Shown: piece by piece, positions 54,001 to 64,000 of the stretch
Layout: each line of letters opens with the position of its first letter
Numbering within the stretch: the first letter of the stretch is position 1
DNA from: an uncultured Syntrophobacter sp.
GTDB lineage: Bacteria; Desulfobacterota; Syntrophobacteria; Syntrophobacterales; Syntrophobacteraceae
Assembly: GCA_963663685.2 (NCBI GenBank)
Contig: CAXXDT010000003.1
Coordinates: forward strand, 62,001 to 126,000
Reading direction: 5' to 3'
DNA length: 64,000 nucleotides
Program-made: the position numbers

Positions 54001-57000
54001 ATGAAATCCTATCGAAAGGAACTGTGGTTCAACGTCCCCACGCGGAGGGCCTTTGTGAACATAACCCCTCAAATCGAACAGTGCCTCCTGGAGAGCGGCA
54101 TCAGGGAAGGCCTGTTGCTGTGCAATGCAATGCACATCACGGCATCGGTGTTCATAAACGACGATGAACGGGGACTCCACTCCGACTACGAACGATGGCT
54201 CGAAGAACTGGCACCCCATGAACCCGTGAGCCGCTACCGCCACAATGACGCAGGGGAAGACAACGGGGACGCGCACCTGAAGCGGCAGATCATGGGGCGC
54301 GAAGTGGTCGTTGCGGTGACCGGCGGGAAACTGGACTTCGGCCCCTGGGAACAAATCTTTTACGGCGAATTCGACGGGCGAAGGCGCAAGCGCGTACTCG
54401 TGAAAATCATCGGCGACTGAGGGGTTCAGCCCCACCCGATTCCCGAGCATGGCCCCGGCGCGATATTCTCAGGGTGTTTCCCACCACGGTGAGGCTGCTT
54501 GCAAACATGGCGAAAACGGCCACGAGCGGGTTCATCGCTCCGAGGACGGCGAGCGGTATTCCCACCGCGTTGTAAAGAAAGGCGAACACGAGGTTTTGCC
54601 GGATCACCCCTGCGGCGAGGCTGGAGAGGTCCAGAAAATCGCGCACCCGTTTCGGATCCGACGACAGGATCGTCACGTCGGCCGCTTCGTGAACGATCAT
54701 GTTGGCCGCCGCCCCCAGGGCGATACCGACATCGGCCCGGGCCAGCGCCGCGGAATCGTTTATGCCGTCGCCGATCATTCCCACCCGGTACCCGTCGTTC
54801 CGGAGGTCCCCGATGATCCGGGCCTTGTCCCCGGGCAGGGCTTCCCCCACGTGCCGGACGATGCCGAGCTTGAGCGAAACCGCCCGGGTGGTTTTTTCGG
54901 AATCCCCCGAGATCACCCGGACTTCGATGCCTTTTTCACGGAATTCCCCGATGACCTCGGAAGCGCCTTCCTTCAGCTTGTCCCCGAACACCAGGCAGCC
55001 GAGAACCAGGCCGCCCCAGCCGAAGAACACCGCCGTAAGCCCCTCTTCCTCCATGGATTTTGCCCGATCGTCCGTTTCCTCCGTCATTTGCAGTCCACGA
55101 AGCGCCATGAAACGCCGGTTTCCCACCGAAACCCTCACGCTCCCGCAGGTCCCTTCCACTCCCAGCCCCGTGCGGACTTCCGAATCCTTTGCCTCTCCAA
55201 GGCCGATCCCCTGCTCCCCGGCCGCGCGCAGGATCTCCCTGGCAAGGAAATGCCCGGAATTGCTTTCAACGGAGGCAACAAGGGAAAGGACTTCCCTTGG
55301 ATCCAGGCCCGGGCAGAAGATTTCCCGGAGGCAAAACCGTCCTTCGGTCAGGGTCCCCGTTTTGTCGAAAATCAGGATCTGAAGGTCCTTCGCTTTTTCC
55401 AGCGCTCCCGGATCGCTCACGAGTATTCCCTTCGAGCGCCCGACTTCGATGGAGGCGACCTTTGCCAGGGGGGTCGCGATACCGAGCGCACAAGGGCACG
55501 TAATGACCAGAACGGTCAGCGCCCTCATCAGCGCCTCATCCGCCGACGTCCCCCGCCAGATAAGGAACACCGCCGTTCCCGCGGCAAGAATCAATACCGC
55601 GGGCACCAGCCGCCGGGTGATCCGGTCGGCGAGAAGTTCCACGGGGTTCTTTCGGGAGAGGGCTTCCTGCACCAGGCAAAGCATCCGGTTGAGCGAACTG
55701 CGGGACCCGGACCGCGTTGCCCGAAATCGCGGGTCCCCATCCAGCACCAGGGCCCCCGCCGCGACTTCCTCCCCCGGTTCTCTTCTTACCGGCCGGGATT
55801 CGCCGGTGAGGATGGATTCATCGAGGAGCGCCCCGCCCGAAATGAGTTCCCCGTCAAGAGGGACCCGTTCGCCTTTCATGACGAGGAATACCTCCCCCGG
55901 TTCAACGGATTCGGTCCGCACCCACCGCTCCATCCCGTCAAGCAGCAGACGCGCCTTGCCCCGGGCCAGGCGCTGGAATTCCACCAGCCCTTTGGACACC
56001 TTCCCGCGCGCCCGCAGTTCGATGAACCTTCCAAGAAGCACCATGGTGATCAGCAGGGACGCGACGTCAAAATAGAGGTGCAGGCTTCCCTGAAGCATCC
56101 TGACAAAACTGTAAAAGTACGCGGACAGGCTCCCCACGGCGATCAGGGTATCCATGGTCAGCATACCGTGCGCAAGCCCGCGGACCGCCTTGTTCAAGAT
56201 GGGAAATCCACCGTAAAAGACCACCGGGGTCGCCAGCAGCCAGATCGGATACGACAGGTATTCAATGCCTTCCTTTCCCAGTTCCTGGAAAAATCCCCCG
56301 TAAAGGGCGAAGGAAATTATCATGATGTTCATGGAGAGGATGGCGGAGAGGCCGAGACGGTATAAAAACTTCCTGTCGCCGGGGCCATCGGCCGCATCTT
56401 CCATGAGGAAACCCTTGTACCCGAGGCGGGAGACCCCGGACAGAATGCCCGTGGGATCAATGAGGTGGGGGAAATACCGTATATGTGCGATATCGGTCAG
56501 GAAAAACACCCGGGCCTCCAGGACGCCGCCGATCTTCCGGAGAGACTCCTCGATCAGCCACGCACAGGCCCCGCACCACATCCCCTCGATCCGGACAGTC
56601 AATTCCCGGGCCAGGCGCCCGGTTTCGGAGGGTTCGGGAACAGGGAACCCCGGAGGCGGGGATTTCGAAGCGGGAAACGAAAGACCGTCCGCAGTTCCGC
56701 CCCCCGTGCCCAGCAGTCCGGCGTTCGCGCAGGCACGGTACAGCTCCGTGTCCCGGTAGTCCGCGGGGGGGCCTTCAGGGCGGCTGAACAGGATCTGAAA
56801 AACACAGAGGCACCCCGGGCAGCAAAAGTACAGCACCTCGCCCCCCGGGGTGCGGAAGGTTTCGGGACGCCGGGAACCGCGGCCGCAGAGAAAGCAGGCC
56901 GTATCCTCCGGGTGGTCCGCCGCCGGGGATAAAGCCGCTCCATGAGAGGTTTTCTCCCGGAAATCAGGCAAGCAGTTCCACCCCCCTCATAAGGAGCAAC

Positions 57001-63000: not shown

Positions 63001-64000
63001 CCGCGAGGACCATCACGGCGGCCAGCCCCGTGTAGAAACTCCCGATGAAATAATAGGCGCCGAAAAGAGTGCTGACCCAATCGGGGTCGAGCGACATGAT
63101 GAGGTCCCACGCGAGCAGTGTCAGAATCAACGCGTACAGGACCGCATAGACCGGTGAAAGGACCCGTTGGATATGGCCGTCGTCCCGCTCCGGGCCATCG
63201 TTCCCGGAAGGGAAAGCCTCCGCCGCCGAGGCCGCGCGCACGTCGCCTCGAACCGAGTGATGGATCAGCAGAACGGAAACCGCGGTGAGGACGAACAGGC
63301 ACAGGCCGTCGCGAGCGAACAGGAAGCCCGTATTGAGCCACACCGCCTTGTGGCCGAGTGATTCGTGGATCCAGGGGAAGATCTTCTCCCTGCCGGGATA
63401 CAGGACCCAAAACAGGAGGAACGCGACGGGCAGGAATGACCCCGGGGCCTCGGCAAGCCGCTTTATCGGCCTTCCCCACCTGGCGCTCGTCATGGTCAGG
63501 CAGGCGGAGACCAGCACCGTCCCGAAAGCGAGCCCGGTCCAGAACATGAAATTGACGAGGTAAGCCTGCCAGGCCCTCAGTTCCTGCGAACTGTTGACGC
63601 CGAAGACAAACGCGACGGCCCCGACGAGCACGAACACGGAAAAGACGATCACCGGACGGCGTTTCACGGTGATCCTGCCGGACTGGCCGATGTGCCGTAA
63701 GATTTCATTCTCTGACTTCATGGATTTCCCCGGCCCCGGATTCCGCCAGGATCCGCTCGGCATTTTCCCGGTCGGATTCGGCACAGAGCACAACCACCCC
63801 GAAATGGCCTTCCGAAAAACGGTGGTCGTAGTCCCCGGACAGTTTGAATTTCGGCAGCCTGCCGTTTATGAGCAACCCGGCCACGGTGAAAAGGACGGCC
63901 ATCAGAATGGTGAATTCGAATGCGACGATGACGGTGGGAACGGCGGGCAACGGCGGTTTGCCGCCGACGATGAACATCCACTGCGCGCAGGTGTACAAGG

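What a model noticed while it worked through the whole genome (the two positions that open the first line are those of the whole stretch)
54407..64000. ACIII-cbb3 oxidase supercomplex operon kept in most Syntrophobacteraceae
One operon joins alternative complex III (actB, C, D, F-like, actA-like) to a cbb3-type oxidase (ccoN, ccoO, cytochrome c, ccoS, copper ATPase) in this sulfate-reducing propionate-oxidiser lineage. Reading: most Syntrophobacteraceae can conserve energy by microaerobic respiration, not only detoxify oxygen. New: a family held to be strictly anaerobic would be facultative at oxic-anoxic interfaces.
Evidence so far: Gene list; CcoN His ligands intact. FixO in at least 50 and ActD in 57 of 80 family genomes, none in the order's other 15 genomes; 2-oxoglutarate dehydrogenase in 42. 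CcoN in 16 of 24 family genomes, with the actA-like gene within 1.5 kb in 15 of 16. Genome also has Nuo, Sdh, Si-citrate synthase. Searches 175, 178 (listings) and PMC9448743 passages do not report it for this family. The finding spans contig positions 116407 to 130553; this window holds only 116407 to 126000 of it.
(Added by a program. Inside this text positions count along the whole contig: contig position 62,001 is position 1 of the stretch shown here. "Call 12" and the like, gene names such as g00115 and contig names such as C1 are that model's own, and its searches are not shown. The text may have been shortened before it was handed on; [...] marks where a part breaks off. The agent that wrote the report below was given it as the finding of a first reader that could run no searches.)

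Follow-up and report, generated by a model that had tools for sequence, protein, structure and literature searches.

The report
Oxygen-breathing chain in sulfate reducers
A 13-gene cluster for a predicted quinol-to-oxygen respiratory chain (alternative complex III plus an unusual cbb3-type oxidase) is present in about seven in ten Syntrophobacteraceae genomes and in many other sulfate reducers, and likely lets these 'strict anaerobes' burn off oxygen while making maintenance energy, though growth on oxygen is untested.

Summary
The cluster is real: actB-C-D-F-A, ccoN, dihaem ccoO, ccoS, a haem-less CcoP anchor, one orphan gene, actE, dsbD-like and ccoI, under purifying selection. CcoN keeps all six metal histidines and the catalytic tyrosine in 92 of 92 homologues. 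59 of 80 family genomes carry it (one decayed); ActD is in 0 of 15 others in the order. It is not family-specific: the same order occurs in Desulfobacterales, and the CcoN clade spans 13 families.

Overlooked features: ActB keeps a fifth Fe-S motif, ActE lacks its usual Met ligand, CcoN lacks His243 and Glu323. A closed same-genus genome lost the cluster cleanly; one clade that lost it holds bo3/caa3 oxidases.

The facultative-aerobe reading is unproven. bd oxidase (79/80) and 2-oxoglutarate dehydrogenase (76/80) do not track the cluster, no RNA data exist, and no supercomplex test was possible. Published work already tallies C-family oxidases in this family and reads cbb3 in Desulfobacterales as scavenging. 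The scan found this operon before in another genome. Best reading: O2 scavenging that also makes proton-motive force. New variant of a known kind.

The parts
64000..64000 (-). Placeholder at the window's end for actB, which lies wholly beyond it (contig 127584-130553; 989 aa): Tat signal and lipobox, fused B1/B2. B2 has the ACIII Fe-S motifs including the [3Fe-4S] pattern; B1 keeps a four-Cys FS0 motif.
   Evidence: 6F0K_B E 2e-123; FS0 Cys 67 of 67; Cys866 is Asp in 18 of 67, this one included; top five fold hits are ACIII ActB
64000..64000 (-). Placeholder at the window's end for actC, which lies wholly beyond it (contig 126228-127568; 446 aa): NrfD-family quinol-site subunit
   Evidence: 6F0K_C E 2e-128; His118, Asp148, His222, Asp228 in 78 of 78
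63705..64000 (-). actD (178 aa; contig 125705-126241, its 5' end lies beyond the window)
   Evidence: PF11821 E 2e-37
62462..63718 (-). actF (418 aa)
   Evidence: 6F0K_F E 1e-33
62213..62455 (.). Dispersed repeat of about 240 nt inserted in the actF-actA gap; a passenger, not part of the machine
   Evidence: 110 distinct sites in the genome, median identity 78%; no Rfam match
61548..62087 (-). actA (179 aa): membrane-anchored pentahaem cytochrome c; last motif is CX3CH
   Evidence: all haem Cys/His and Met157 in 123 of 123
60116..61534 (-). ccoN (472 aa from the first GTG; real start probably some 14-17 codons later): C-family haem-copper subunit I
   Evidence: model pLDDT 85; TM 0.92 to 3MK7
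59172..60119 (-). ccoO fused to a second cytochrome c domain (315 aa); two His/Met haem motifs
   Evidence: both haem motifs and both Met in 122 of 122
58899..59168 (-). ccoS-like maturation protein with an extra hydrophobic tail (89 aa)
   Evidence: PF03597 E 1e-5
58613..58894 (-).
   Evidence: FixP_N PF14715 in 15 of 30 homologues at E up to 10, best E 3e-6; the window's own copy has no such hit. Its profile picks CcoP N-termini out of 2012 ORFs.
58206..58523 (-). Conserved 105-aa protein with one hydrophobic stretch and no known family
   Evidence: In 53 of 54 loci with enough flank; no Pfam hit; Atlas hits only to unnamed proteins, under 0.9
57679..58209 (-). actE-like monohaem cytochrome c (176 aa, lipobox-like Cys34); the usual distal Met is His here
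   Evidence: (Met in 1 of 85; Gln 46, His 29)
56964..57671 (-). DsbD_2 / TauE-like membrane protein (235 aa), an optional accessory gene
   Evidence: PF13386 E 2e-37; in 22 of 54 loci
54407..56971 (-). ccoI-type P1B heavy-metal (copper) ATPase (854 aa from the first TTG)
   Evidence: in 46 of 54 loci

Best explanation
The cluster encodes a complete, conserved alternative complex III and a divergent cbb3-type haem-copper enzyme that likely form a menaquinol-to-oxygen chain, which would strip oxygen during brief microoxic spells and build proton-motive force for survival rather than for sustained aerobic growth.

Shown by sequence: all cofactor ligands of the path, the conserved gene order, and purifying selection.

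Inferred from solved homologues: menaquinol is oxidised at the periplasm-side site of ActC (His118, Asp148), releasing protons outside. Electrons pass the [3Fe-4S] of ActB, the five ActA haems, then ActE or directly the extra haem of CcoO, the CcoO haem, haem b and the b3-CuB site. There O2 is reduced with cytoplasmic protons taken through the K-like channel. CcoI and CcoS load the copper site. The extra CcoO haem and the haem-less CcoP anchor together stand in for CcoP.

Yield: one charge per electron as for bd, plus any pumping (2 H+ per O2 for the C family, disputed). Whether pumping survives the loss of His243 and Glu323 is unknown. Untested: expression, O2 activity, physical supercomplex, growth.
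For: Six His, helix-VII Tyr251, Thr215, Tyr223, Ser240, Tyr317, Glu122 and Glu125 (3MK7 numbering) are invariant in 92 of 92 distinct homologues. No NOR-type Glu follows the CuB His: Gly in 47 of 47. The model matches cbb3 (TM 0.92) ahead of cNOR (0.84). Murali 2024 ties the Tyr to O2 chemistry (passages).

The copper ATPase is in 46 of 54 loci and ccoS in 51 of 54; actA, actF, actD and actC lie upstream in 58 of 58 loci with 6 kb of flank. dN/dS against L032 is 0.08-0.26 for nine genes.

The cluster is kept although 79 of 80 genomes already have bd oxidase. The one nested clade that lost it has an A-type oxidase in 8 of 9 genomes, and G060 there holds a decaying copy.

For 'survival, not growth': up to 12 separate non-carrier clades on a SucA tree of 74 genomes. 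Chen 2021 saw Desulfobacterales decline in oxic incubations (passages). In Dyksma 2024 the Syntrophobacteraceae MAGs persisted at up to 0.1% through O2 pulses, with low transcript levels for their haem-copper oxidases.
Against: No expression or activity data exist for this cluster. His243 is Gly in 92 of 92 and Glu323 is Gln, Arg or Leu in 92 of 92, so affinity, turnover and pumping may differ from studied cbb3; this state is common among divergent C-family proteins, for which I read no biochemistry. ActE lacks its Met, so the hand-off to the oxidase is uncertain. The Chen incubations and the Dyksma reactor used high O2 (133 uM in the latter), and the Dyksma MAGs show no rows for this cluster, so neither excludes microaerobic growth by carriers. 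The A-type 'replacement' rests on about two evolutionary events, not on the nominal p = 0.007.
Confidence: 0.55

Rival explanations
1. True microaerobic growth: carriers switch from sulfate to O2 at oxic-anoxic interfaces.
For: A 14-kb, 13-gene chain under selection on top of bd. NuoL, an SdhA-like gene, citrate synthase and SucA are present. An A-type oxidase sits where one clade lost the cluster. Precedents exist in a sulfate-reducing acidobacterium and in Desulfovibrio strains (passages).
Against: SucA is in 76 of 80, non-carriers included. Many losses, among them a clean one in a closed same-genus genome. In one family MAG the caa3 subunit I had 0 RPKM in four oxic samples against 0.5-1.2 anoxic, at shallow depth.
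Confidence: 0.2
2. Pure high-affinity scavenging, for instance respiratory protection of nitrogenase and other O2-sensitive enzymes, with no energetic gain over bd because the variant enzyme does not pump.
For: His243 and Glu323 are lost. nifH is in 46 of 59 carriers against 10 of 21 non-carriers. Published readings of sulfate-reducer oxidases as detoxifying.
Against: The nifH link is inflated by kinship: genus g11 lacks nifH in 8 of 8 and the cluster in 6 of 8, and G079 has nifH without the cluster. The rest of the proton channel is invariant. bd already scavenges in 79 of 80.
Confidence: 0.13
3. The terminal enzyme works mainly on nitric oxide, or the ACIII half serves anaerobic electron flow through its extended Fe-S branch, with O2 reduction secondary.
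For: C-family enzymes can reduce NO in vitro. The active-site surroundings are altered, with a clade-typical His at position 253 in 91 of 92. FS0 is retained in 67 of 67 ActB; Sousa 2018 suggests the Fe-S branch may exchange electrons with an outside carrier.
Against: The cross-link Tyr is invariant, there is no FeB Glu, and copper-loading genes are linked. A separate qNOR-type gene and a separate QrcABCD-like cluster exist in the same genome.
Confidence: 0.1

Closest known systems
ACIII-caa3 of Rhodothermus marinus (PDB 6F0K; Sousa 2018, PMC5928083, passages read) and ACIII-aa3 of Flavobacterium johnsoniae (6BTM)
   Same: ActA-F all present and best matched to these structures; act genes clustered with an oxygen reductase; quinol-site residues kept.
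   Different: The partner is a C-family oxidase. Order is B-C-D-F-A with actE moved behind the cco genes. ActB keeps a four-Cys FS0 motif absent at the aligned place in 6F0K, 6LOD and 8K9E. ActE lacks the Met that ligates its +165 mV haem in R. marinus. Physical association is not shown here.
cbb3 oxidase CcoNOP of Pseudomonas stutzeri (3MK7)
   Same: Fold (TM 0.92), six His, Tyr251, most K-channel residues, Glu122/Glu125, CcoO haem, ccoI and ccoS.
   Different: About 30% identity; scores 282 against the TIGR00780 cut-off of 583. His243 is Gly, Glu323 is Gln, Trp253 is His. CcoO is dihaem, CcoP is cut to a haem-less anchor, and ACIII replaces bc1. It forms its own long-stemmed clade (SH-aLRT 100).
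QrcABCD of sulfate reducers (Duarte 2018, PMC6303296, passages read)
   Same: Homologous A/B/C/D modules; the genome's own QrcB-like protein also shows an N-terminal Cys motif.
   Different: B1 and B2 are fused, ActD/E/F are present, and an oxidase is linked. QrcA/B/C models score below cut-off, and a separate Qrc-like cluster lies on contig C5. Predicted direction is quinol oxidation, not quinone reduction.
bd and cc(b/o)o3 oxygen reductases of Desulfovibrio vulgaris (second-hand, from passages)
   Same: Membrane oxygen reductases in a sulfate reducer, read as defence.
   Different: Here a dedicated quinol:cytochrome c oxidoreductase is encoded with the oxidase, and the oxidase is C-family.

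Membership tests
C-family (cbb3) haem-copper oxygen reductase | Six His ligands for haem b, haem b3 and CuB | tested here: met
   92 of 92
C-family (cbb3) haem-copper oxygen reductase | Cross-link Tyr on helix VII; no FeB Glu | tested here: met
   Tyr251 in 92 of 92; Gly four residues after the CuB His in 47 of 47
C-family (cbb3) haem-copper oxygen reductase | Cytochrome c secondary subunit (CcoO, His/Met) | tested here: met
   122 of 122; PF02433
C-family (cbb3) haem-copper oxygen reductase | K-like proton channel Ser240, His243, Tyr317, Tyr223, Thr215 (roles recalled) | tested here: inconclusive
   Four of five invariant; His243 is Gly in 92 of 92
Canonical CcoNOQP subfamily (TIGR00780) | Glu323 beside the proximal His (role recalled); haem-bearing CcoP; score over cut-off | tested here: not met
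   Glu in 0 of 92; haem-less CcoP module; 282 against 583 bits. Not filed here.
C-family (cbb3) haem-copper oxygen reductase | O2 reduction and proton pumping | not testable with these tools
   Needs biochemistry
Alternative complex III | Six conserved subunits ActA-F | tested here: met
Alternative complex III | Pentahaem ActA with one His/Met haem | tested here: met
   123 of 123
Alternative complex III | ActB with Tat signal, fused B1/B2, one [3Fe-4S] and three [4Fe-4S] motifs | tested here: met
   one ligand is Asp in 18 of 67; fold hits
Alternative complex III | Cofactor-free B1 domain | tested here: inconclusive
   FS0 four-Cys motif kept in 67 of 67. No conserved Cys in the stretch inspected for a Mo ligand. 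Occupancy not testable.
Alternative complex III as solved (R. marinus type) | ActE haem with His/Met ligation | tested here: not met
   Met in 1 of 85 at the aligned place; Met39 (84 of 85) could substitute, untested. Filed as a variant, not as the solved type.
Alternative complex III | Quinol:cytochrome c oxidoreductase activity | not testable with these tools
   ActC His118/Asp148 are invariant; activity unmeasured
ACIII-oxidase supercomplex | Physical association of ACIII and oxidase | not tested
QrcABCD | Separate B and C subunits, four-gene cluster, QrcA/B/C models over cut-off | tested here: not met
cNOR / qNOR | FeB Glu present and Tyr absent | tested here: not met

The most novel reading that the evidence does not exclude
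Most Syntrophobacteraceae and many Desulfobacterales, the main propionate- and acetate-oxidising sulfate reducers of peat, paddy and sediment, grow microaerobically with an undescribed ACIII-cbb3 supercomplex. Its ActB carries a live fifth Fe-S cluster giving a second electron port, and its CcoP is split into a haem-less anchor plus a haem fused to CcoO.
Probability: 0.17. Interest if true: 0.85.

Novelty: new variant of a known kind. Interest (0 to 1): 0.55.

Why it matters
Whether sulfate reducers gain energy from O2 or only survive it is an old open question, studied mostly in Desulfovibrio. This cluster gives a precise target in a different, ecologically larger group: 58-59 of 80 Syntrophobacteraceae genomes and 13 families in a 400-genome phylum sample. 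Named cultured carriers exist (Desulfosarcina alkanivorans PL12, D. widdelii PP31, D. variabilis Montpellier), as do natural non-carriers in the same genus as the window. If carriers respire O2 for growth, the fate of propionate and acetate at roots and peat surfaces, and so competition with methanogens, needs revising. Independently, the enzyme pair is a biochemically unstudied variant: an ACIII with an extended Fe-S branch and Met-less ActE, and a C-family oxidase without His243 and Glu323.

Tried and rejected
Complex prediction (CcoN + CcoO + ActA): tool not available, no verdict.

Sequencing runs: no RNA holder listed; not evidence either way, and no reads were laid.

His243Gly/Glu323Gln as a unique mark of this clade: rejected, it is common in divergent C-family proteins.

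SucA as a sign of aerobic life: rejected, 76 of 80 with non-carriers included.

Fisher tests for A-type oxidase and nifH: not used as statistics, since 7 of the 8 A-type non-carriers are one clade. Three rows of that tree were read on the wrong strand; it was rebuilt.

Regulator boxes (FNR, CRP/HcpR, Rex, sigma-54, Fur-like; patterns recalled) in 300 nt upstream of 68 actB genes: none above shuffles. Promoter and terminator scan gave chance-level counts.

Dyksma 2024 supplements: no DUF3341, mono-haem FixO or linked ccoN rows for BA69 or BA129. BA69 01775 is in a tetrathionate-reductase cluster, and BA129 01963 has no operon neighbours. The workbook was cut before Tables S8-S12.

G025 ActD/ActC hits belong to a different, fragmented actA-B-C-D cluster, and G029 holds remnants with stops; both were counted as non-carriers. 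G069 frameshifts also hit the neighbouring peptidase, so were read as assembly noise.

Plasmid search: best hits only 35%, no close relative. Rfam: nothing. Venceslau 2010 and Pereira 2011 are not held by the library. PMC10066037, PMC6704655, PMC11059160 and PMC9448743 passages had nothing on this cluster.
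Full report
1. What is there. The window is G000:C3:62001-126000. The nearest titled relatives are Syntrophobacter and Syntrophobacteraceae MAGs (CcoN 91% in L032), and the genome has dsrA over cut-off. On the minus strand, contig 130553 to 116407 reads actB, actC, actD, actF, [374-nt gap], actA, ccoN, ccoO, ccoS, orf93, orf105, actE, a DsbD_2 gene and a P1B ATPase. Other junctions overlap or are at most 89 nt. The gap holds a repeat found at 110 sites in the genome. ActA, B, C, E and F match the like-named ACIII chains best in the PDB; ActD is PF11821. dN/dS against L032 is 0.08-0.26 for nine genes.

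2. The oxidase. Against 3MK7, all six His, Tyr251, Thr215, Tyr223, Ser240, Tyr317, Glu122, Glu125 and His337 are invariant in 92 of 92 distinct homologues. The residue where NO reductases have the FeB Glu is Gly in 47 of 47. The model (pLDDT 85) matches cbb3 at TM 0.92 and cNOR at 0.84. Departures: His243 is always Gly, Glu323 is Gln (78), Arg (13) or Leu (1), and Trp253 is His in 91 of 92. The first two are common in divergent C-family proteins, so they mark distance from the studied enzymes, not this clade alone. CcoO has two His/Met haem motifs (122 of 122). orf93 is a haem-less CcoP N-terminal module: FixP_N in 15 of 30 homologues at a loose threshold, best E 3e-6, and its profile ranks CcoP N-termini first among 2012 ORFs.

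3. The ACIII. ActC keeps His118, Asp148, His222 and Asp228 in 78 of 78 (roles recalled from R. marinus). ActB keeps a CX2CX3C...C FS0 motif in 67 of 67, absent at the aligned place in three solved ActB chains. Sousa 2018 (passages) describes the [4Fe-4S] branch as ending near the surface with an elusive role; here it would be one cluster longer (inference). The ActB model still matches ACIII ActB first, and I saw no conserved Cys in the stretch inspected for a Mo ligand. ActE has lost the usual distal Met in 84 of 85 (Gln 46, His 29); Met39 is kept in 84 of 85 and might substitute (untested). A separate Qrc-like cluster and a qNOR-type gene lie elsewhere in the genome.

4. Spread in the family. 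Of 80 family genomes: this CcoN in 56 (59 matches minus 3 weak A-type hits; 47 as one near-full-length frame, 9 split or cut), FixO in 55, ActD in 60. actC lies within 6 kb of ccoN in 50 of 56; in the other six it is on another contig. G030, G034 and G040 have the act half cut by a contig end, giving 59 carriers. G060 is decayed, leaving 58. Of the split copies I inspected only G060 and G069 closely. ActD is in 0 of 15 genomes of the order's other two families. The closed same-genus genome G079 has the flanking peptidase and downstream genes joined about 120 nt apart. The same flanks border the cluster in other genera, so this is a loss. A SucA tree of 74 genomes shows 12 maximal non-carrier clades. 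Sedano-Nunez 2018 (passages) says S. fumaroxidans has only one membrane-anchored multihaem cytochrome besides QrcA, which fits absence of the cluster in the model organism and may explain why it was overlooked (inference).

5. Spread outside the family. The same order occurs in Desulfosarcina, Desulfatitalea, Desulfobacula, Desulfobacter and other records. Among those 80 loci, actA, F, D and C lie upstream in 58 of 58 with enough flank, and actB in 52 of 55. In 400 phylum genomes at least 90% complete, 36 in 13 families hold the clade (E below 1e-140). A 93-row tree gives it SH-aLRT 100 on a long stem. Family members fall in two sub-lineages mixed with other families, which points to transfer (quick search, no bootstrap, no AU test).

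6. Growth or defence? For more than detoxification: the cluster is kept although 79 of 80 genomes have bd. A-type oxidases (bo3 and/or caa3 with cytochrome b) are in 8 of 21 non-carriers against 6 of 59 carriers. But 7 of the 8 are one clade with G060 (support 1.0), so this is about two events. Against growth: SucA is in 76 of 80 and does not track the cluster; losses are frequent; no O2-regulator box is conserved upstream. Chen 2021 (passages) reports bd and cbb3 in Desulfobacterales, reads them as scavengers and saw the order decline under oxic incubation. Dyksma 2024 (abstract, passages, parts of supplements) found two Syntrophobacteraceae MAGs persisting at up to 0.1% through 133 uM O2. 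The caa3 subunit I of BA69 (Table S7, matched by gene 00408) had 0 RPKM oxic against 0.5-1.2 anoxic, at shallow depth. These MAGs show no rows for our cluster, so the test is indirect. nifH is in 46 of 59 carriers and 10 of 21 non-carriers, inflated by kinship. Since bd is itself electrogenic (established knowledge), gene content cannot settle the matter. I commit to O2 removal coupled to proton-motive force for survival (0.55), ahead of growth (0.20), non-pumping scavenging (0.13) and NO or anaerobic use (0.10).

7. What is known. ACIII-oxidase clusters and supercomplexes are established. Murali 2024 Dataset S6 lists one C-family enzyme in each of 11 visible Syntrophobacteraceae rows and in Desulfosarcina (file cut, SI appendix unreadable). 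Ten searches (listings, with passages read where cited) showed no paper describing this gene order in Desulfobacterota, the FS0 motif, the Met-less ActE or the split CcoP. The classic surveys (Yanyushin 2005, Refojo 2010/2012, Venceslau 2010, Pereira 2011, Ducluzeau 2008) were not read and may show it. Other notes describe ligand-less CcoN in Verrucomicrobiota ACIII operons, which is not the case here.

8. Verdict. Observation confirmed; interpretation partly supported. It is a new variant of a known kind, wider than the family, with distinctive cofactor changes and cultured test strains. The supercomplex and facultative growth remain untested. Interest 0.55.

Noticed in passing
window 62213-62455: Repeat of about 240 nt with 110 sites in the genome (median 78% identity) and many look-alikes in G079, G080 and G067. 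It folds into several hairpins and has no Rfam match.
   Followed up: partly
L001:16740-16965 (upstream of actB): A second dispersed repeat family with up to about 50 overlapping copies in the genome, with a short CCCGGACAAC palindrome.
   Followed up: no
G060:C165 (L267): Decaying copy of the cluster: actB mostly deleted, with an inverted ccoI beside the remnant, and frameshifts in actC and ccoN. The genome has a bo3 oxidase.
   Followed up: yes
L260, L261, L264 (G048, G050, G051): caa3-type oxidase genes; L261 and L264 also have a cytochrome b (bc-type) gene beside them, and L260 has a bo3 operon adjacent.
   Followed up: partly
G025:C48 (L165): A different, fragmented actA-B-C-D cluster in canonical order, without ccoN.
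   Followed up: partly
G069:C7 (L158): A canonical-type cbb3 ccoN/ccoO in one family genome, besides the cluster.
   Followed up: no
P0121-P0270: Many 50%-cluster representatives of CcoN-like proteins lack several His ligands or the Tyr, i.e. non-catalytic or re-purposed C-family relatives.
   Followed up: no
80 family genomes: SucA-type 2-oxoglutarate dehydrogenase in 76 of 80 and nifH in 56 of 80. A SucA so widespread in an anaerobic family has no explanation here.
   Followed up: partly
G000:C3:179379-182392: SdhA-like gene directly downstream of citrate synthase, on the same strand.
   Followed up: no
L164 (Sinorhizobium meliloti pSymA): Atypical CcoN (Gly243, Gln323) with a trihaem subunit II, a 90-aa CcoP-N-like ORF and a TauE gene; parallels the oxidase half seen here.
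   Followed up: no
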